Shown here in pieces: positions 4,391 through 41,000 of a stretch of 64,000 nucleotides of DNA; position 1 is the first letter of the stretch, and each line of letters starts with the position of its first letter. A model generated the notes under the pieces. It saw only the letters and a program-made list of their open reading frames with translations, had not been told where the DNA came from and did not search any database. Location of the stretch: NCBI RefSeq assembly GCF_009914755.1, contig NC_060937.1. One strand, written 5' to 3'. Origin of the DNA: the human T2T-CHM13v2.0 reference genome, Homo sapiens. A program made the position numbers and the translations under genes.

Positions 4391-5809
4391 CTACATTAGT
4401 TTAGCTAGTGGTCTATTTTGTTAATAATTTCAAAAAGCCAGCTCCTGTATTCATTGATTTTTTTGGAGGGTTTTTTCTTGTCTCTATCTCCTTCAGTTCT
4501 GCTCTGATCTTAGGTATTTCTTGCCTTCTGCTAGCTTCTGGATTAATTTGCTCTTGCTTCTCTAGTTCATTTAATTTTGATGTTAGGGTGTCTATTTGAG
4601 GTCTTTCTAGCTTTCTGATGTGGGCATTTAGTGCTATAAATTTCCCTCTACACACTGCTTTAGCTGTGTCCCAGAGATTCGGGTACGTTGTCTCTTTGTT
4701 CTCATTGGTTTCAAAGAATTTCTTGATTTCTGCCTTAATTATTTACGTAGGAGTCATTTAGGAGCATGTTGTTCAATTTCTATGTAGTTTTATGGTTTTG
4801 AGGGAGTTTCTTAATACTGAGTTCTAATTTGATTGCGCTGTGGTCTGAGAGTCTGTTAGTTATTATTTTAGGTTTTTTTTTCTGCATTTGCTGAGGAGTG
4901 TTTTCTTCCAATTATGTAGTCGATTTTAGCATAAGTGCTATGTGGCACTGAGAAGAAAGTATATTCTGTTAATTTTGGGGTGGAGAGTTCTGTAGATGTC
5001 TATTAGGTCCATTTGATCCAGAGCTGAGTTCAGGTCTTGAATATCCTTTTCAATTTTCTGTCTCATGATCTATTATTGATAGTGGGGTGTTAAAGTCTCC
5101 CACTATTATTGTGTGGGAGTCTAAGTCTCTTTGTAGGTCTCTAAGAACTTGTTTTATGAATCTGGATGCTCCTGTATTGGGTGAATATATATTTAGGATA
5201 GTTAGCTCTTCTTGTTGAATTGATCCATTGACCATTATGTAATGCCCTTCTTTGTCTTTTTTGATCTTTGTTGGTTTAAAGTCTGTTTTGTCAGAGACTA
5301 GGATTGCAACCCCTGTTTTTTATGCTTTCCATATGCTTGGTAAAATTTCCTCCATCTTTTTATTTTGAGCATATGTGTGTCTTTGCCTGTGAGATGGGTG
5401 TCTTGAATACAGCACACCAATGGGTCTTGACTCTTTATCCAATTTGCCATTCTGTGTCTTTTAAATGGGGCATTTAGTTCATTTACATTTAAAGTTAATA
5501 TTGTTATGTGTGAATTTGATCCTGTCACCATGATACTATCTGGTTATTTTGCACACTGCTTGATGCACTTTCTTCATAGTGTCATTGGTCTTTATATTTT
5601 GGTGTGTTTTTGCAGTGGTTGGTACCTGTTTTTCCCTTCTGTATTTAGTGCTTCCTTCAGGAGCTCTTGTAAGGCAGGTCTGGTGTTGACAAAATCCCTC
5701 AGCATTTGCTTGTCTGAAAAGGATTTTATTTCTCCTTTACTTATGAAGCTCATTTGGCTGGATATGAAATTCTGGATGGAGTGTTTTTTCTTTAAGAATG
5801 TTGAATATT

Positions 5810-31333: not shown

Positions 31334-32777
31334 GTATGGACTAGAGAGGGATGGGTGAAGATCATACTGTGGTTAGTGTGTTCAGAAGGCAGTGATGTCT
31401 GAGCAGATGCATGAATTCCTGAAAGGGAGTCAGCCACACGAAGAGCTGGGGAGGAAGGGGTTTTAGGCAGAGGAATAGTTAGGGAGAAGGCCCTAAGGTA
31501 GAGTCAAGCTTAGTGTATTCAAAGGACAGGAAGGCAGCCAAAGTGTCTGGCACCTGGAGTACAAAGGTGAGAGGAGTCGGAGATGAAGTTCAAGAATAGA
31601 TGTGGTGTGCAGGTGGCTCCTGGTGATTCCACCTCCTGGGATTCATGCCCTTGTGTAATCTCCTCCCTTATCTCTGAGCTGGACTTGGTGACTCTCTTTT
31701 AACAAATGGCATATGGCAAAAGTGATGCAATATCACTCTGGGATTAATTTATAAAAAACTAAGACTTTTTGCTCTCTCCCTGTGTTAGTCTGTTCTCATG
31801 CTGCTAATAAGACATACCCAAGACTGAGTAATTTATGAAGGAAAGAGGTTTAATGGACTCACAGTTCTGTATGGCTGGGGAGGCCTCAGACACTCAATCT
31901 CTGACCTTCCTCTGTTTTTATCTCCATGTGGATATATTATCTACAATCATGGTGGAGGGCAAACGAGAAGCAAAGGCACATCTTACATGGTGGCAGGGAA
32001 GAGAGCTTGTGTAGGGGAACTCCCATTTATAAAACCATCAGATCTCGTGAGACTTATTCACTAGTATGAGAACAGTATGGGGCAAACTGCCCTCATGATT
32101 CAAGTATCTCCACCTTGCCCTGCCCTTGACATGTGGGGATTATTACAATGCAAGGTGAGATTTGGGTGGGGACAAAAAGACAAACTATATGATTCCGCCA
32201 TGGCCTTTCTCAAATTTCATGTTCTCACATTTCAAAACCAATCATGCCTTCCCAACAGTCTCCCAAAATCTTAACTCAAAAGTCCACAGTCCAAAGTCTC
32301 ATGTGAGATAAGGCAAGTTCCTTTAGCCTATGATCCTGTAAACCCAAAAGCAAGTTAGTTACTTCCTAGATACAATGGGGATATAGGCATTGGGTAAATA
32401 CACCCATTCCAAATAGGAGAAATTGGCCAAAACTGAGGGGCTACAGGCCCCACACAAGTCTGAAATCCAGTGGGGAAACCAAATCTAAAGTTCTGAAATG
32501 ATCTCCTTTGACTTCATGTCTCATATCCAGGTCACGCCGATGTAAGAGGTGGGCTCCCACAACCTTGGGCAGCTCTGCCCCTGTGGCTTTGCAGGGTACA
32601 GCCCCCTCGTGGCTGCTTGCACAGGCTGGTGTTGAGTGTCTGGCTTTCCAGGTGCATGGTGTAAGCTGTCGATGGATCTACCATTCTGGGGTCTGGAGGA
32701 CAGTGGCCCCCTTCTCACAGCTCCGCTAGGCAGTGCCCCAGTCGGGACTCTGTGTGGAGGCTGCAACCCCACATTTC

Positions 32778-35700
32778 TATTTTTTAATTAATTTTTTTTA
32801 TTTTCATACGTTATTGGGGGAACAGGTGGTGTTTGGTTACATGAGTAAGTTCTTTAGTGGTGATTTGTGAGATTTTGGTGCACCCATTACTCAAGCAGTA
32901 CACACTGCACTTAAATTGTGGTCTTTTATCCCTCACCCCTTCCCATCCTTTCCCCCTGAGTCCCCAAAGTCCATTGTGTCTTTCTTACGCCTTTGCATCC
33001 TCATAGCTTAGCTCTCACATATGGGTGAGAACATACGATGTTAGATTTTCCATTCCTGAGTTACTTCACTTAGAATAATAGTCTCCAGTCTCATTCATTG
33101 CTTTTTGTGGCTGAGTTTTATTCTATCACATATATATATATATATGTGTATGAACTCAAACAAATTGGCAAGAAAATATATATATATATGTGTATATATA
33201 TATGTGTATATATATATACACATATGTATATATATGTGTATATATATATACACATATGTATATATATGTGTATATATATATATACATATGTATATATATA
33301 TGTCACAGTTTCTTTACTCATTGATTGATGGGCATTTTGGTTGATTCCACATTTTTGCAACTGCAAATTGTGCTGTTATAAACATGCATGTGCAAGAATC
33401 TTTTTCATATAATGACTTGTTTTCCTCTGGGTAGAAACCCAGTAGTGGGATTGCTGGATCAAATGGTAGTTCTACTTAAGGAATCTCCACACTGTTTTTC
33501 ATAGTGGTTGTACTAGTTTACATTCCCACCAGCAGTGTAGAAATGTTCCCTGTTCACTGCATCCATGCCAACATCTATTTTTTTTTATTTTTTGATTATG
33601 GCCATTCTTGCAGGAGTAAGATTGTATCACACTGTGGTTTTGATTTGCATTTCCCTGATCATTAGTGATGTTAAACATTTTTTCATATGTTTGTTGGCCA
33701 TTTGTGTATCTTCTTTTGGGAATTGTCTATTCATGTCCTTAGCCCATGTTTTAATGGGATTGTTTTGTTTTCTTGCTTATTTGTTTTTGAGTTCATTGTA
33801 GATTCTGGATGTTAGTCCTTCATCAGCTGTATAGATTGTGAAGATTTTCTCCCACTCTGTGGATTGTCTGTTTACTCTGCTGACTGTTCCTTTTGCTGTG
33901 CAAAAGCTCTCTGGTTTAATGAAGTCCACCTATTTTTATTTTATTGCATTCACTTTTGGGTTCTTGGTCATGAAATCCTTGCCTAAGCCAATGTATAGAA
34001 GGGTTTTTCCAATGTTGTCTTCTAAAATTTATAGTTTCAGGTCTTAGATTTAAGTCCTTAATCCATTTTGAGGTAATTTTTGTATAAGGTGAGAGATGAG
34101 GATCCAGTTTCATTCTCCTACATGTGGCTTCCAATTATCCCAGCACTGTTTGTTGAATAGGGTGTCCTTTCCCCACTTTGTTTTTGTTTGCTTTGTTAAA
34201 GATCAGTTGGCTGTAAGTATTAGGGTTTACTTCTGTGTTCTCTATTCTATTCTGTTGGTATATGTGCCTATTTTTATGCCAATACCATGCTGCTTTGGTG
34301 ACTATGGCCTCATAGTACAGTTTGAAATCAGGTAGTGTGATGCCTCCAGATTTGTTCTTTTTGCTTAGTCTTGCTTTGGCTATGCAGGGTGTTTTTTTTA
34401 GTACCATATGGATTTTAGGATTTTTTTTCTAATCTGTGAAGAATGATGGTGGTATTTTAATGGGAATTGCATTGAATTTGTCAACTGCTTTTGGCAGTAT
34501 AGTCATTTCCACAATATTGATTCTACCCATCCATGAGCATGGGATGTGTTTCCATTTGCTTGTGTCATCTATGATTTCTTTCAGTGGTGTTTTGTTGTTT
34601 TCCTTGTAGAGGTCTTTCACCTCCTTAGTTAAGTATATTCCTAAGTATTTTATTTTTATTGTGGCTGTTGTAAAGGGGTTGAGTTCTTGATTTGATTCTC
34701 TGTTTGGCCACTGTTGGTGTATAGAAGAGCTACTGATTTGTGTACATTGATTTTTGTATCCAGAAACTGCCGAATTCTTTGATCAGTTCTAGGAGCTTTC
34801 TGGAGTAGTCTTTAGGGTTTTCTAGGTAAACAATAAATCATCAGCAAACAGTTTGACTTCCTCTTTACCGATTTGGATGCCCTTTATTTCTTTCTCTTGT
34901 CTGATTGCTCTGGCTAGGACTTCCAGTGCTACATTGAAGAGTAGTGGTGAGAGTGGGCATCCTTGTCTTGTTTTAGTTCTCAGAGGGATACTTTTAACTT
35001 TTCCCTATTCAGTATTATGTTGGCTGTGGGTTTGTCATAGATCGCTTTTATTACATTGAAGTATGTCCCTCGTATGCCAATTTTGCTGAGAGTTTTAATC
35101 ATAAAGCGATGTGGAATTTTGTCGAGTGTTTTTTCTGCATCTATTGAGATGATCATGTGATTTGTGGTTTTGATTCTGTTTATGTGGTGTGTCACATTTA
35201 TTGACTTGCATATGTTAAACCATCCCTGCATCCCCACTTGATCATGGTGGATTATCTTTTTGATATGTTGTTGGATTTGGTTAGCTAGTATTTTGTTAAG
35301 GATTTTAGCATCTGTGTTCATCAGGGATATTGGTATGTAGTTTTCCTTTTTTTGGTTATGTCCTTTCCTGGTTTTAGTATTAGGGTGATACTGGCTTCAT
35401 AGAATGATTTAGGGAGGGTTTCCTCTTTCTCTGTCTTGTGGAATAGTGTCAATAGGATTGGTACCAATTCTTCTTTGAATATCTGGTAGAATTCTGCTGT
35501 AAATCCATCTGGTCCTGGACTTTTTTTGTTGGTAATTTTTTTTATTACCATTTCATTCTTGCTGCTTGTTATTGGTCTGTTCATAGCATCTAATTCTTCC
35601 TGATTTAAGCTAGGAAGTTTATATCTTTTCAGGAATTTATCCATCTCCTCTAGGTTTTCTAGTTTATGCAGATAAAGGTGTTCATAGTAGTCTTGAATAT

Positions 35701-37958
35701 TATTTTATATTTCTGTGGTGTCAGTTGTAATATCTCCCATTCCATTTCTAATTGAGCTTATTTGGATTTTCTCTCTTCTTGGTTAATATTGCTAATGGTC
35801 TATCAATTTTATTTCTCTTTTCAAAGAGCCACCTTTTGCTTCATTTATATTTTGTATTTTTTTGTTTCAATTTCATTTAGTTCTGCTCTGATCTTGGTTA
35901 TTTCCTTTACTTTGCTGGGTTTGGGTTTGGTTTGCTCTTGGTTTCTCTAGTTTCTTGAGGTGTGACCTTAAATTGTCTGTGCTCTTTCAGACTTTTTGAT
36001 GCAGCCATTTAGGGCTATGAACTTTACTCTTAGCACCACCTTTGCTGTATCCCAGAGGTTTTTTTATAGGTTGTATCACTATTGTCATTGAGTTTAAATA
36101 GTTTTTTAATTTCCATCTTGATTTCATTTTTGACCCAGTGCTCAATCAGGAGCATGTTATTTAATTTCTGTGTATTTGCATGATTTGAAGTTTCCTTTTG
36201 GAGTTGATTTTCAGTTTTATTCCACTGTGGTCTGAGAGTGCTTGATATAATTTCAATTTTCTTGAAATTTTTTAGGCTCATTTTGTGGCCTATCCTATGG
36301 TCTATCTTGGAGAAAGTTCCATGCATTGTTGAATAGAATGTATATTCTGCAGTTGTTGGGTAGAATGTTCTGTAAATATCTGTTAACTCCATTTGTTCCA
36401 AGGTATAGTTTAAATCCATTGTTTCTTTGTTGACCTTGTCTTGATGACCTGTCTAGTGCCATTAGTGGAGTATTAAAGTCCCCTCCTATTATTCTGTTGC
36501 TGTCTATCTCATTTCTTAGGTCTATTAGTAATTGCTTTATAAATTTGGGAGCTCCAATGTTAGGTGCATATATATTTAGGATTGTGATATTTTCCTATTG
36601 GACAAGGCCTTTTATCATTATATAATGACCCTCTTTGTCTTTTTAAACTGCTGTTGTTTTAAAGTTTGTTTTGTCTAATGTTAGAATAGCTACCCCTGCT
36701 TGCTTTTGATGTCCCTTTGCATGGAATGTATTTTTCCATCCCTTTATCTTAAGTTTATATGAATCCTTATGTGTGAGGCATGTCTCTTAAAGGCAGCAGA
36801 TAGTTGGTTTGTGAATTCTTATCCATTCTGCAATTCTGTATCTTTTAAGTAGAGCATTTAGGCTATTTACATTCAATATCAGTATTGAGGTGTGAGGTAC
36901 CATTCCACTCATCATGCTATTGGTTGCCTGTATACCTTTTTTTTAATTGTATTTTTGTTTTATAGGTCCTGTGAGATTTATGCTTTAAAGAGGTTCTGTT
37001 TTGATGTGTTTCCAGGATTTGTTTCAAGATTTAGAGGTCATTTTAGTAGTTCTTGTGGTGCTGGCTTAGTAGTGGCACATCCTCTCAATATTTGTTTGTC
37101 TGAAAAAGACTGCATCTTTCCTTCATTTATGAAGTTTAGTTTCACTGGGTACAAAATTCTTGGATGATAATTGTTTTGTCTGAGGAGGCTGAAGATAGGG
37201 CCCCAATCCCTTCTAGCTTGTAGGGTTTCTGCTGAGAAATCTGCTGTTAATCTTACAGGTTTTTCTTTATAGGTTACCTGGTGTTTTTGCCTCACAGCTC
37301 TTAAGATTCTTTCCTTTGTCTTAACTTTATATAACAGATGGAAGTGTGCCTAGGCGATGATCTTTTTGTGATGAATTTCCCAGGTGTTCTTTGAGGTTCT
37401 TGTATTTGGAAGTTTTAGTTCTCTAGCAAGGCAGGGGAAGACTTCTCAATCAGTTCAAGTTGTTATAAAGTTCAATTGGAGGTTTTCTTCTCCCTGTGGC
37501 CTTTCCCCAGTGCCTCTGGAAGCCATCCTTAAGGACGCCTGTGAGGTGAGGCAGAAATGGCTTGCTAGAGGACCCAGAAGGCCCACAGGGATTTTTCCAC
37601 TGCTTCCTCTACCCCTGTATTTCACTCAGCTCTCTAAATCAACTCAGCTTCAGGTAACATCAGAATCTTCTCCTGTAGTCTACACCTTCAAGTTCCCCAG
37701 TGAGAGTGTGTGTTCAGGAGTGGACAATATCCCTTTTTCACTTCCACTGTTTGAGCACTCAAAGCATTTGGGATGTCTCCTGGGTCCTGCAGGAGCAATC
37801 TGCTTCCTTCAGAGGGTCTGTGTGTTCTCTTGGCTTTCCTAATGTATTCCTGCAGTTGCTCTGCAGTCAAAGTTCATGCTGAAAGCCTCCATGTGCTGTT
37901 CTGTGCACCTGAGTGGGAGCTTAAATCTAGTCCTGCCTCCCATCTGCCATGATCTCTC
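32778..37958 (-). mobile_element. L1PB1-like element with intact 5' terminus and a 5'UTR/ORF1 internal deletion
   Basis: 3' end GGTTACATGAGTAAGTTCTTTAGTGGTGATTTG; ORF2/ORF1 fragments; 5' start GAGAGATCATGGCAGATGGGAGGCAGG; TSD CAACCCCACATTTC at 32764-32777 and 38089-38102. Confidence 0.92.
33128..33302. repeat. (TA)n/(TATG) microsatellite in the L1PB 3' region
   Basis: Alternating TA with TG/CA interruptions; contains a 27-nt non-repeat insert. Confidence 0.95.
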
Positions 37959-37970
37959 CATCTAGAAGTT

Positions 37971-38088
37971 AGTTTTGCAGGCTGGGAAGTCCAAGATCAA
38001 GAGGTTAGCATATTTGGTTTCTAGTGAGGGCTCAGTCTCTGCTTCATAAATGGCACCTTGTAGCTATGTCCTCCCATGGGGAAAGGAC
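37971..38088 (-). mobile_element. MST (MSTD-like) LTR fragment inside the L1PB TSDs; putative 5'-transduced first exon
   Basis: Minus strand CCATGGGAGGACATAGC...GCCCTCACTAGAAACC...TTGATCTTGGACTTCCCAGCCTGCAAAACT, stopping where GTGAG would follow. Confidence 0.85.
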
Positions 38089-41000
38089 CAACCCCACATT
38101 TCCCTTCCATACAGCCCTAACAGAGGTTCTTCATGAGGCCAGCCCACCTCCCCCCACCCCGTGCCCCACAGCAAACTTCTGCCTGTACATCCAAGAGTTT
38201 CCATACATCCTCTGAAATCTAGGCAGAGGTTCCAAAACCTCAATTCTTGATTTCTGTATATCTGCAGGCTCAACACCACATGGAAGCTGCCAAGGCTTGG
38301 GGCTTGTACCCTCTGAAGTCATGGCCTGAGTGGTACCTTGTCCCTTTTAGCATGGATGGAGCAGCTGGAACACAGGGCACCAACTCCCTAGGCTGTACAC
38401 AGTGGTGGGCCCTGGGCCTGACCCATGAAACCAGTTTTTCCTCCTAGGCCTCCGGGCCTGTGATGGGAGGGGCTGCCATGAAGGTCTCTGATGTGCCCTG
38501 GATACATTTTCCCCATTGTTTTGGCGATTAACATTTGGCTCCTCATTATTTATGCAAATTCCTGCAGCTGGCTTGGATTTCTTCTCAGAAAATGGCTTTT
38601 TCTTTTCTATCACATCATCAGTTTGCAAATTTTTGAACTTTTATGCTCTGCTTCATTTTTAAACACAAATTCCAATTGTAAACCATATCTTTGTGAATAC
38701 ATAAAACTGAATGATTTTAATAGCACCCAAGTCATCTCTTGAACACTTTGCTGCTTAAAAATTTCTTTTGCCAGATGCCCTAACTCATCTCTCTCAAGTT
38801 CAAAGTTCCACACATTTCTAGGGCAGGGGCAAAATGCTAAAGGATTTTGCTAAAATGTTATGCTCTTTGCTAAAGCATAACAAGGGTCACTTTTACTCCA
38901 GTTCCCAATAAGTTCCTCTTTTCCATCTGAGACCACCTCAACCTGGACTTTATTGTTCATATCATTGTCAATATTTTGGTCAAAACTATTCAACAAGTCT
39001 CTAGGAAGTTCCAAATTTTCCTACTTTTTTTGTCTTATTCCGAGCACTTAGAACTGTTCCAACCTCTACCTGTTACCCAGTTCCAAAGTCATTTCCACAA
39101 TTTTGGAACAGCAGCTCCCCACTCTTTCGATACTACTTTACTGTATTAGTCTGTTCTCATGCTGCTAACAAAGACATACCTGAGACTGGTTTATTTATAA
39201 AGGAACGAGGTTTAATGGATTCACAGTTCCACATGACTGGGGGTGGTCTCACAATCATGGTGGAAGGCAGAGGAGAAGCAGAGGCACATCTTACATGCCA
39301 GCAGGGAAGAGAGCTTATGCAGGGAAACTTCCATTTATAAATCCATCACATCTTGTGAGACTTATTTACTATCATGAGAATAGTATGAGAGAAACCACCC
39401 CCATGATTCAATTATCTCCACCTGACCCTGCCCTTGAAATATGGGGATTATTGACATTCAAGGTGAGATTTGGGTGGGGACACTGTCAGACTGTATCATT
39501 GGCTTTTTGTCTCTCTTTTTGGCTCGCCCCTTCTGGTGAAGCAAGCTGCAATGTTTTGAGATGCTCTATGGAGAGATCTGTGATCTATATCCAAGGAACT
39601 AGACGTGGCCTTTGGCCAATAGCCAGTGAATAATGAGGCCCTCACACATACAGCCCACAATGAACTGAATCCTATGAACTACCGCATGAGTGAGTTTGGA
39701 ACAGGATCTCCCTAAGTTGAGCACTGAGATGACTTGCAGCCCTATGCAATTGCTTGAATGACACCCTGACACAGAGGACCCAGTTAAGCTGTCTTTGGAT
39801 TTCTTATTTACAGAAACTGTGAAATAATAGATGTTGTCATTTCAAGTCACTATGTTTTGGGGTAATTTGTTATACAGTAATAGATAAATAATACAGATAG
39901 GTAGGGTCAGATCATATTGAGATTTATGGGCTATGGTAAGGAGTTTGTATTCTCATTACAGTATAGGGAAGGATATGACCACATTTTAAAAGATCACTTT
40001 GACAGCTGTGTGGGGGAACTAACAGCACAGAGGCAAGAGTAGAAGTGGAAGGACTAACTAGGAGGCCCTCACAGAAGTATGTTTGGACATAGTGCTCATA
40101 TAACTCACTGGGTATTGGATGTAGGGGATAAAGGAAACAGAAGAATTACAGTTGATTTCTATGATTTTGGCTTGATTAACTGGATAGATGAATGAGCCAT
40201 TTGCTGAGATAAGGTTAGAGGAAGAATTAAGTTGGGGTAGATATGGAAATATTCATGTTGAAGATAATATATCCAGATGGAGATGTAAATAGGGAAAAGT
40301 CAGAGGTTCAGACATGCCTGAGTATGTCTGGAAGATGGGTGGGGCAGTTCTTTGGGTGAATCTACTTACATGAGTGCTCAGAAGCCTCTTGAGAAAGAAC
40401 TAGCCTAGCCTAAGAGAAGTCAAGGTGCTTTATTTGTTTGAAAGAAAAGAAGCCAAAGTTAGGGTTGGTAAGCCTGTGTATACCACCTCATCTTCTAGCT
40501 TAGGCCACATGTCCTAGGGTAAGGGGGATACAATAACAGCCTCAATAAAAATAAAAATAAACACTTTCAATAACATCTCCATTGATTCAACATTTATCAG
40601 TCCAAGGGACAGAAGTTCTGCAGAAATGGGAGATGGTGGTCCTGGAACAGACATCAGCACTTATGATATGAGGCAGCCTTGACTTGCATATTGATGGGTC
40701 TAAGCAATGTTATTGGTGGTGTTGTCAACCACTGGTGATGACCACTTCTGAGAGCTGCAGTAACATGGCTGCCACTTTTGTCCTCAGTAGTGATAGGAGC
40801 TATCACTGCAGAAACAGGAGAGGAAATGGTGGATGCCTCATTTTAGCCAAGAAGGCCCTTCTTGGGAATTTTCTTTTGTTTAGGAATTTGAAATGGGCTG
40901 AGCTTTCTCAACTGGGATGGAATTGGACTTTTATCAGGAACCAATTTCTACCCTTAGGACATGTTCTCTAGAAAACAGGGGATGTAGAAGAGTCATTAAA

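What the first reader, a model, noticed from the sequence alone, without database searches (positions are those of the whole stretch)
32764..38102. L1PB1 apparently mobilised from an MST-LTR-promoted, spliced transcript (5' transduction)
Seen: one 14-bp TSD (CAACCCCACATTTC, 32764-32777 and 38089-38102) brackets the L1PB, a 12-nt linker (37959-37970; AACTTCTAGATG in L1 sense) and 118 bp of MST LTR (37971-38088) in the same orientation, upstream of the L1 5' end. The LTR piece lacks U3/TATA. It stops at ...CAGCCTGCAAAACT, the position where other MaLR LTRs in this window continue GTGAG (28170/28171, 19033/19034). Known: MaLR LTRs act as promoters in oocytes and early embryos and use this donor; 5' transduction arises when L1 is transcribed from an upstream promoter. 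Inference: an MST LTR initiated transcription and spliced to an acceptor ~12 nt before a source L1PB, and the chimeric mRNA was retrotransposed. This would be a fossil of an LTR lending its germline promoter to a LINE. Caveat: the endonuclease site (TTTC/CC) is non-canonical.
Basis: partly seen in the sequence, partly recalled or inferred. Interest (0 to 1): 0.8.

Follow-up and report, generated by a model that had tools for sequence, protein, structure and literature searches.

The report
L1 insertion carrying an LTR-exon leader
An ancient L1 retrotransposon copy was pasted in together with a 118-base leader that looks like the first exon of a transcript started and spliced from a MaLR (MST-type) LTR, a neat fossil of a known but rarely seen process.

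Summary
The exact 14-mer CAACCCCACATTTC occurs only at 32764-32777 and 38089-38102. All 29 paralogous copies of the host element carry that site once and uninterrupted, so MST piece, linker and L1 entered in one event.

The L1 (minus strand) reaches the usual L1PB-type 5' end. The 118-nt piece aligns in sense to MaLR LTRs. It begins about 24-28 nt after the LTR TATA, where a start site is expected. It ends at ...AACT, where 6 of 9 compared copies continue GTGAG. The 11-12-nt linker matches neither L1 nor the LTR tail.

The leader therefore looks like exon 1 of an LTR-initiated, spliced RNA. The best reading is a spliced 5' transduction from a source L1 downstream of an MST LTR (about 0.55).

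Not shown:
- No source locus, acceptor or sibling copy was found in the human genome.
- Template switching of the L1 reverse transcriptase onto such an RNA is not excluded (about 0.2).

The leader lacks U3, so the daughter copy did not inherit the promoter. The mechanism is a known kind; this is a new, well-delimited example.

The parts
32764..32777 (.). Target-site duplication, left copy (CAACCCCACATTTC), next to the L1 poly(A) end
   Evidence: There is a single copy of this site in 29 of 29 paralogous host elements.
32778..32804 (-). A-rich tail of the L1, read as a T-rich run on the + strand
   Evidence: The paralogous L1 copy L060 aligns up to the tail.
32778..37959 (-). L1PB-type L1. It is 5'-complete and contains about 520 nt of 5'UTR, the ORF1 C-terminus, ORF2 remnants and the 3'UTR.
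   Evidence: Pfam Tnp_22_dsRBD E 1e-26, Transposase_22 E 1e-6, RVT_1 E 1.9e-15. Identity to full-length paralogues is 82-87%. The 5' terminus is shared with 11 plus 12 other copies.
37438..37439 (-). Junction of a roughly 1.4-kb internal deletion that removes the rest of the 5'UTR and most of ORF1. It shows CT/TCC microhomology and no GT..AG.
   Evidence: Three full-length paralogues (L060, L061, L064) carry about 1390-1450 extra bases here.
33097..33292 (.). TA/CA-rich simple repeat inside the L1 3' part, absent from the paralogues
   Evidence: There is a gap in the alignments at insertion positions 4811-5006, and repetitive translations appear.
37960..37970 (-). Linker AACTTCTAGAT(G), 11-12 nt, of unknown origin. 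Under the splicing model it is the start of exon 2, that is, the 5' flank of the source L1.
   Evidence: It is not L1. Its similarity to the LTR tail is at chance level: 1971 of 2000 shuffles score as high or higher.
37971..38088 (-). MaLR (MST-type) LTR leader in L1 sense. It runs from the predicted transcription start to the LTR splice donor and lacks U3/TATA, the poly(A) signal and U5.
38089..38102 (.). Target-site duplication, right copy
31781..39498 (-). Host: a full THE1-like MaLR element with LTRs at about 31781-32135 and 39142-39498. The composite was inserted into its internal region, in the same orientation.
   Evidence: The name THE1 is my recognition of the LTR sequence and was not given by a tool.

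Best explanation
A full-length L1PB-type element lay downstream of a sense-oriented MST-type MaLR LTR in an ancestral primate germline or early embryo. Transcription started at the LTR's TATA-directed start site. The LTR's conserved donor (AACT|GTGAG, just before its AATAAA) was spliced to a cryptic acceptor 11-12 nt upstream of the L1 5' end. The resulting LTR-exon/L1 mRNA was retrotransposed by target-primed reverse transcription into the internal region of a THE1 element, making a 14-bp target-site duplication.

Shown: a single insertion event; a 5'-complete L1; and a leader whose two ends coincide with the LTR start site and donor.

Inferred: the splice itself, the cis linkage of LTR and L1 at the source, and the tissue. 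The roughly 1.4-kb internal deletion is a separate, non-splicing event of unknown timing.
For: 1. One event. The 14-mer occurs only twice in the window, against a chance expectation of 0.03. 29 of 29 paralogous host copies have the site once and uninterrupted, and 27 of 29 give an exact 14-bp overlap of the two flanks.

2. The L1 5' end is complete. It has the same GG(A)GAGATCATGG terminus as 23 other copies, whose upstream flanks are unrelated.

3. The 3' boundary of the leader is ...AACT. 6 of 9 compared MaLR LTRs continue GTGAG exactly there, and each copy has only 1-3 GTRAG sites in the 188 nt examined.

4. The 5' boundary falls at G29 counted from the first T of the TATA, in the rows with an intact cttata (4 of 8 comparators). 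The last 4 TSD bases (GTTG) also match the LTR in L005 and L008, so the RNA start lies about 24-28 nt after the TATA.

5. Literature, passages read:
- MaLR LTRs carry a donor at a conserved position near the 3' end, upstream of AATAAA (PMC5538554).
- THE1/MLT1 LTRs initiate spliced transcripts in human oocytes (PMC6102241).
- DUX4-induced MaLR transcripts are spliced (PMC8120133).
- TE-derived focused start sites have the TATA at -25 to -30 (PMC12963367).
- 5' transduction from an upstream promoter via a spliced mRNA is drawn as a standard scenario (PMC6035798).
Against: - No source locus was found. The pattern linker+L1 5' end at up to 3 mismatches found only the window itself plus 2 non-L1 chance hits, and the control pattern gave 2.
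- No sibling has the leader. All 39 non-self hits of the junction query cover only the MST part (40 of 683 candidates scored). The exon/linker junction pattern hits only the window itself.
- The closest MST LTR (chr4, 90% identity over 117 nt) reads ATGAG at the donor and lacks the TATA region. It has no L1PB 5' end within 49 kb downstream. None of the 100 listed L1PB 5'-motif matches (of 446 in total) lies near it.
- The acceptor cannot be inspected.
- The endonuclease site TTTC/CC is non-canonical and was so ancestrally.
- MST LTRs are reported to have broader start-site distributions and weaker promoter activity than THE1 (PMC12963367).
Confidence: 0.55

Rival explanations
1. Template switching (a chimeric retrocopy). 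The L1 reverse transcriptase copied an ordinary, self-promoted L1PB RNA to its 5' end. It then jumped onto an unrelated LTR-initiated, already spliced RNA 11-12 nt past its exon 1/exon 2 junction and copied that RNA to its cap. The LTR never drove the L1.
For: It explains the same anatomy: one TSD, the same orientation, and a leader running from the start site to the donor. It also explains why no genomic locus with linker plus L1 exists. An L1 part ending exactly at its own 5' terminus fits end-to-end template jumping.
Against: It needs an acceptor RNA whose usable 3' end lies only 11-12 nt into exon 2. From recall, known chimeras mostly join a complete small RNA to a 5'-truncated L1. No other retrocopy of this exon junction exists in the genome at up to 3 mismatches over 34 nt.
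Confidence: 0.2
2. Unspliced 5' transduction. The source L1 had itself landed inside (or next to a truncated) MST LTR, just after ...AAAACT, with about 11 extra nucleotides at its own 5' junction. The LTR promoter read straight through into the L1, and the coincidence with the donor is chance.
For: The LTR start-site coincidence is explained equally well. The AAAACT just before the breakpoint would give a TTTT/G-like endonuclease site on the opposite strand; this is my reading. An insertion between the start site and AATAAA would also remove the LTR poly(A) signal from the path.
Against: The breakpoint hits the one conserved GTGAG among 188 transcribed LTR positions, with only 1-3 GTRAG sites per copy. 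The linker shows no significant similarity to the LTR tail (1971 of 2000 shuffles score as high or higher). A contiguous source should have been the top hit of the 203-nt junction query, but none of the 39 non-self hits spans the junction.
Confidence: 0.12
3. The leader is not of RNA origin. It is either filler DNA captured at the 5' junction during repair of the integration intermediate, or the result of two successive insertions.
For: From recall, extra nucleotides at L1 5' junctions are known. The endonuclease site is atypical.
Against: A captured DNA fragment has no reason to begin at the LTR start site and end at its donor. An LTR-element integration would bring complete LTR ends and its own short duplication, and neither is present. 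A single 14-bp TSD encloses everything.
Confidence: 0.05

Closest known systems
L1 5' transduction (transcription of a donor L1 from an upstream genomic promoter)
   Same: Non-L1 sequence lies between the 5' TSD and a 5'-complete L1, in the same orientation, within one TPRT event. The reviews describe this, including a spliced version (PMC6035798, figure legend and text passages; PMC6681178, passage).
   Different: The transduced piece here is an LTR-derived first exon delimited by the start site and the donor, and the event is tens of millions of years old. No donor locus is known, whereas modern cases are defined by tracing the donor.
SVA subfamily with a spliced MAST2 first exon at its 5' end (5'-transducing SVAs)
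   Same: An upstream promoter's first exon was spliced onto a non-LTR retrotransposon RNA and carried along by the L1 machinery. I saw only the search listing and the start of the abstract of PMC6139936 and related titles; the details are recalled.
   Different: That chimera founded a proliferating subfamily and carries CpG-island promoter sequence. Here no sibling copy was found, and the promoter part (U3) was not carried.
LTR-initiated chimeric transcripts of MaLR LTRs in oocytes, zygotes and DUX4-expressing cells
   Same: They use the LTR start site and the conserved donor near the LTR 3' end, spliced to downstream acceptors (PMC5538554; PMC6102241; PMC8120133; PMC3836709).
   Different: Those are living transcripts joined to genes or lncRNAs. 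Here the downstream partner would be an L1, and the evidence is a retrotransposed DNA copy.
Chimeric retrocopies made by L1 reverse-transcriptase template switching (U6/L1 type)
   Same: Two RNA-derived parts lie in the same orientation inside one TSD, with the L1 part at the 3' side.
   Different: The L1 part here is 5'-complete rather than truncated, and the 5' part is not a complete small RNA.
Spliced integrated retrotransposed elements (SpIREs)
   Same: They are retrotransposed copies of spliced L1 RNAs (PMC5860796; search listing and start of abstract only).
   Different: SpIREs use donors and acceptors inside the L1. The internal 1.4-kb deletion here has no GT..AG and shows microhomology, so it is not a SpIRE junction.

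Membership tests
L1 insertion by target-primed reverse transcription | Target-site duplication enclosing the whole insert | tested here: met
   There is an exact 14-bp duplication, and 29 of 29 paralogous sites carry a single copy.
L1 insertion by target-primed reverse transcription | 3' poly(A) tail next to the TSD, and L1 coding remnants | tested here: met
   The A-rich tail is at 32778-32804. The ORF1 dsRBD-like domain and RVT_1 were found by Pfam.
L1 insertion by target-primed reverse transcription | TTTT/AA-like endonuclease cleavage site | tested here: not met
   The site is ATTTC/CC. It is ancestral: 19 of 29 paralogues read atttc/cctt. This is a degenerate site; TSD and tail still argue for endonuclease-dependent TPRT.
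L1 5' transduction | Non-L1 sequence between the 5' TSD and a full-length L1 5' end, in sense orientation | tested here: met
L1 5' transduction | A donor locus where the transduced sequence lies upstream of the source L1 | tested here: inconclusive
   None was found in the human genome. At this age, loss or decay of the source is plausible, and other primate genomes were not available.
Spliced leader (exon 1 of an LTR-initiated RNA) | The 3' end of the leader coincides with a GT donor in the parent LTR family | tested here: met
   6 of 9 MaLR copies read GTGAG immediately after the breakpoint. The position agrees with the conserved MaLR donor upstream of AATAAA (PMC5538554).
Spliced leader (exon 1 of an LTR-initiated RNA) | The 5' end of the leader coincides with the LTR transcription start | tested here: met
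   It lies 24-28 nt after the first T of the TATA, in 4 of 8 comparators with an intact TATA. This is a prediction from the TATA distance rule (PMC12963367), not a measured MST start site.
Spliced leader (exon 1 of an LTR-initiated RNA) | The sequence after the junction is preceded by AG and a pyrimidine tract in the genome | not testable with these tools
   The source is unknown, and 11-12 nt is too short to place in the genome.
MaLR (MST-type) LTR | Sequence similarity to LTR copies in sense, with TATA upstream and AATAAA downstream of the matched part | tested here: met
There are 39 non-self matches at 76-90% identity, with alignments.
SpIRE (internally spliced L1) | Internal deletion bounded by GT..AG in intact copies | tested here: not met
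   The boundaries read ...agtct|cctggcc... and ...ggaaaa|cttcccc..., with CT/TCC microhomology.
Template-switch chimeric retrocopy | Two RNA-derived parts in the same orientation, in one TSD, joined without genomic contiguity anywhere | tested here: inconclusive
   The anatomy is compatible, and no contiguous locus was found. Absence of a source cannot distinguish this from a lost donor.

The most novel reading that the evidence does not exclude
This copy may be the visible trace of a wider, uncatalogued route. Germline- or embryo-active MaLR LTRs would splice their first exon onto downstream full-length L1s. That would let L1s whose own 5'UTR promoter is silenced be transcribed and retrotransposed, leaving an LTR-exon leader as the signature whenever the acceptor lies in the flank. 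If recurrent, it would be one concrete way in which LTR elements and LINEs cooperate, and a candidate first step in how L1 lineages acquire new 5' ends.
Probability: 0.15. Interest if true: 0.6.

Novelty: new member of a known kind. Interest (0 to 1): 0.4.

Why it matters
Hosts silence L1 largely through its own 5'UTR. A copy mobilised from a borrowed, germline-active LTR promoter shows a way around that control.

It is also a clean example in which both ends of a transduced leader map to functional landmarks of the lending element. Old 5' transductions are rarely recognisable; here the host element's many paralogues supply an empty-site control without needing other species.

The limits are clear:
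- It is a single fossil, and no donor locus or sibling copies were found.
- The leader lacks U3, so the promoter was not passed on.
- The general mechanism, 5' transduction including spliced forms, is already in the reviews.

Tried and rejected
1. Is the linker the continuation of the MST LTR after a 10-bp deletion (AACTTCT against AATTTCT)? Rejected as unsupported: 1971 of 2000 shuffled linkers score as high or higher against the 7 LTR tails.

2. Is the chr4:42213456 MST LTR (90% identity; the other hits are 83% or less) the donor?
- There is no L1PB 5' end in the 10 kb upstream or 49 kb downstream that I fetched. Only a 74%-identical ORF2 fragment of an older L1 lies about 35 kb away.
- Its donor reads ATGAG, and its TATA region is missing.
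- With 683 candidates, one outlier at 90% over 117 nt is about what chance gives; this is my estimate.
- A genome-wide list of the L1PB 5' motif showed none of its 100 listed places (of 446 matches) near that locus.

3. The linker+L1 pattern hits on chr5 and chr6 are not L1.

4. Twelve further L1PB copies whose alignments reached into the linker have no similar upstream flank.

5. Is the internal 1.4-kb deletion a splice (a SpIRE)? No: there is no GT..AG.

6. Are there other LTR-exon/L1PB joins? The exact pattern CAGCCTCCAGAACT, 1-30 nt, GATCATGGC gave 0 matches. Sensitivity is low for sequences this old.

8. Literature searches for an LTR-promoted L1 5' transduction returned reviews of the general mechanism but no described case. 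This covers only the open-access library that was searched.
Full report
**What is there**

The 14-mer CAACCCCACATTTC lies at 32764-32777 and 38089-38102. These are its only two occurrences in the window at up to one mismatch. Chance expectation is 0.03, and none of 100 shuffles gave two.

Between the two copies, read on the minus strand, lie in order:
- a 118-nt piece similar to MaLR LTRs (38088-37971);
- 11-12 nt of unassigned sequence (AACTTCTAGAT, plus a G that may belong to the L1);
- an L1 that runs to an A-rich tail ending at 32778.

Pfam confirms the L1: ORF1 C-terminal dsRBD-like domain at E 1e-26, and RVT_1 at E 1.9e-15. The endonuclease match is only below cut-off.

**One insertion event, shown by paralogous empty sites**

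The flanks on both sides belong to one repeat, present in thousands of copies (5080 first-look candidates). It spans 31781-32777 and 38088-39500. It ends in two LTRs that I recognise as THE1-type: about 31781-32135 and 39142-39498, on the minus strand. The name is my recognition and was not given by a tool.

I fetched 29 paralogous copies. In 27 of them the left and right flanks overlap by exactly 14 bp in BLAST projection. The two exceptions are explained by differences further downstream. Direct read-out shows the site once and uninterrupted in all 29. The MST piece, the linker and the L1 therefore arrived together, and the duplication is real.

The same read-out shows that the cleavage site was ATTTC/CC already in the ancestral target: 19 of 29 read atttc/cctt and 5 read atttc/cttt.

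**The L1 is complete at its 5' end**

A 286-nt query across the junction found 39 non-self L1 copies (40 of 1312 candidates scored). All of them begin to align at query positions 23-46, that is, at or just before the L1 start.

Alignment of 11 of these copies, and inspection of 12 more, shows a common terminus GG(A)GAG(G)ATCATGG with unrelated sequence upstream in every copy. The window copy starts at the same point (37959/37958). At least 446 genomic sites match a 30-nt motif of this 5' end at up to 3 mismatches.

The element is nevertheless only 5.2 kb, because about 1.4 kb is missing (the rest of the 5'UTR and most of ORF1). Three full-length paralogues carry the extra 1390-1450 bases. The deletion boundaries have no GT..AG and share a CT/TCC microhomology. 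It is an ordinary deletion, not a splice.

**The leader is delimited by LTR landmarks**

The junction query matched 39 other genomic places at 76-90% identity, all covering only the MST part (40 of 683 candidates scored). I aligned the leader with six genomic copies and the two MaLR LTRs of the window.
- It ends at ...AACT.
- Six of nine copies continue GTGAG at exactly that point. Two read ATGA and one reads GTTGG.
- Each copy has only 1-3 GTRAG sites in the 188 nt examined.
- The AATAAA follows directly after this point in those copies.

This is the position at which MaLR LTRs are reported to carry a conserved splice donor (PMC5538554, passages).

At the other end, the first inserted base aligns with position 29 counted from the first T of the TATA, in the four of eight comparators that keep cttata. 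The last four TSD bases (GTTG) also match the LTR in two copies, so the RNA may have started up to four bases earlier. Either way the start lies 24-28 nt after the TATA. TE-derived focused start sites are reported to have their TATA at -25 to -30 (PMC12963367, passages). No measured start site for this LTR subfamily was available to me, so this end is a prediction.

The leader thus contains neither U3 nor the poly(A) signal nor U5. The 12-nt linker has no more similarity to the LTR tail than shuffled versions do (1971 of 2000 score as high or higher).

**Interpretation**

A fragment that begins at a promoter's start site and ends at its donor is what the first exon of a spliced RNA looks like. 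A random DNA breakpoint would hit each boundary with a probability of the order of one or a few per cent (my estimate and the LTR length). I therefore give about 0.75 to the statement that the leader derives from an LTR-initiated, spliced RNA.

How that exon came to sit in front of the L1 is less certain.
- **Spliced 5' transduction (0.55).** The scenario is drawn in a review (PMC6035798). It fits known behaviour of MaLR LTRs in oocytes, embryos and DUX4-expressing cells (PMC6102241; PMC8120133; PMC3836709).
- **Template switching (0.2).** The reverse transcriptase, on reaching the L1 5' end, jumped onto an unrelated LTR-initiated spliced RNA.
- **Unspliced read-through (0.12).** The source L1 sat directly in the LTR. 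This requires the donor coincidence to be chance, and it should have left a contiguous locus, which was not seen.
- **Capture of DNA filler, or successive insertions (0.05).** Neither fits the boundaries or the single duplication.

**What was not found**

- No locus joins the linker to an L1PB 5' end at up to 3 mismatches in 24 nt. The two hits are not L1, and the control pattern gave as many.
- No other copy of the exon/linker junction exists, and no sibling L1 carries the leader.
- The best-matching LTR, on chr4, is 90% identical. It has a mutated donor, lacks the TATA region, carries an Alu, and has no L1PB 5' end within 49 kb downstream. With hundreds of candidates, one such outlier is expected by chance.
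- A further 200 kb of chr4 could not be fetched.
- An exact-pattern search for other LTR-donor/L1PB joins found none, with low sensitivity.

At this age (paralogous L1 copies are 82-87% identical), the source may simply have decayed or been lost. Other primate genomes, which could still hold it, were not available.

**Novelty and weight**

5' transduction, including spliced forms, and LTR-initiated spliced transcripts are both established. My two literature searches for an LTR-promoted L1 transduction returned only general reviews, within the open-access library searched.

I therefore file this as a new, unusually well delimited member of a known kind. The leader lacks the promoter part of the LTR and no descendants are visible, so the event had no lasting consequence for the L1 lineage. 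Its value is as evidence that LTR promoters could mobilise L1s in the primate germline, and as a template for a genome-wide screen.

Noticed in passing
window 31781-39498 (minus strand): The host of the insertion is a complete THE1-like MaLR element with both LTRs, about 2.4 kb without the insert. The L1 composite lies in its internal region in the same orientation, about 1 kb downstream of the host's 5' LTR.
   Followed up: partly
window 37438-37439: The L1 has a roughly 1.4-kb internal deletion running from the 5'UTR into ORF1, with CT/TCC microhomology and no splice-site dinucleotides. Whether it arose before, during or after insertion is unknown.
   Followed up: yes
window 33097-33292: A TA/CA-rich simple repeat of about 195 bp lies inside the L1 3' part and is absent from the five paralogous L1 copies compared.
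   Followed up: partly
L069 (G000:C11:129798602-129798922) and L070 (G000:C9:33752742-33753062): Two L1PB-type copies share their 5' end and at least 190 bp of upstream flank at about 97% identity. That is far more than the age of the L1 allows, so this is most likely a later segmental duplication rather than a 5' transduction pair.
   Followed up: partly
L002 1395-1990 (G000:C4:42213350-42213945): This is the MST-type LTR closest to the leader (90% identity over 117 nt). It lacks about 85 bp including the TATA region relative to other copies, reads ATGAG at the donor position, and is interrupted by an Alu with its own duplication of the LTR sequence ttacccatttg.
   Followed up: partly
window 31765-31778 and 39503-39516: Near-identical 14-nt strings (CTTTTTGCTCTCTC and CTTTTTGTCTCTCT) flank the host THE1-like element, 2 and 4 bases outside its LTR ends. 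That is longer than the short duplication I would expect for this class. It may be chance in a low-complexity stretch.
   Followed up: no
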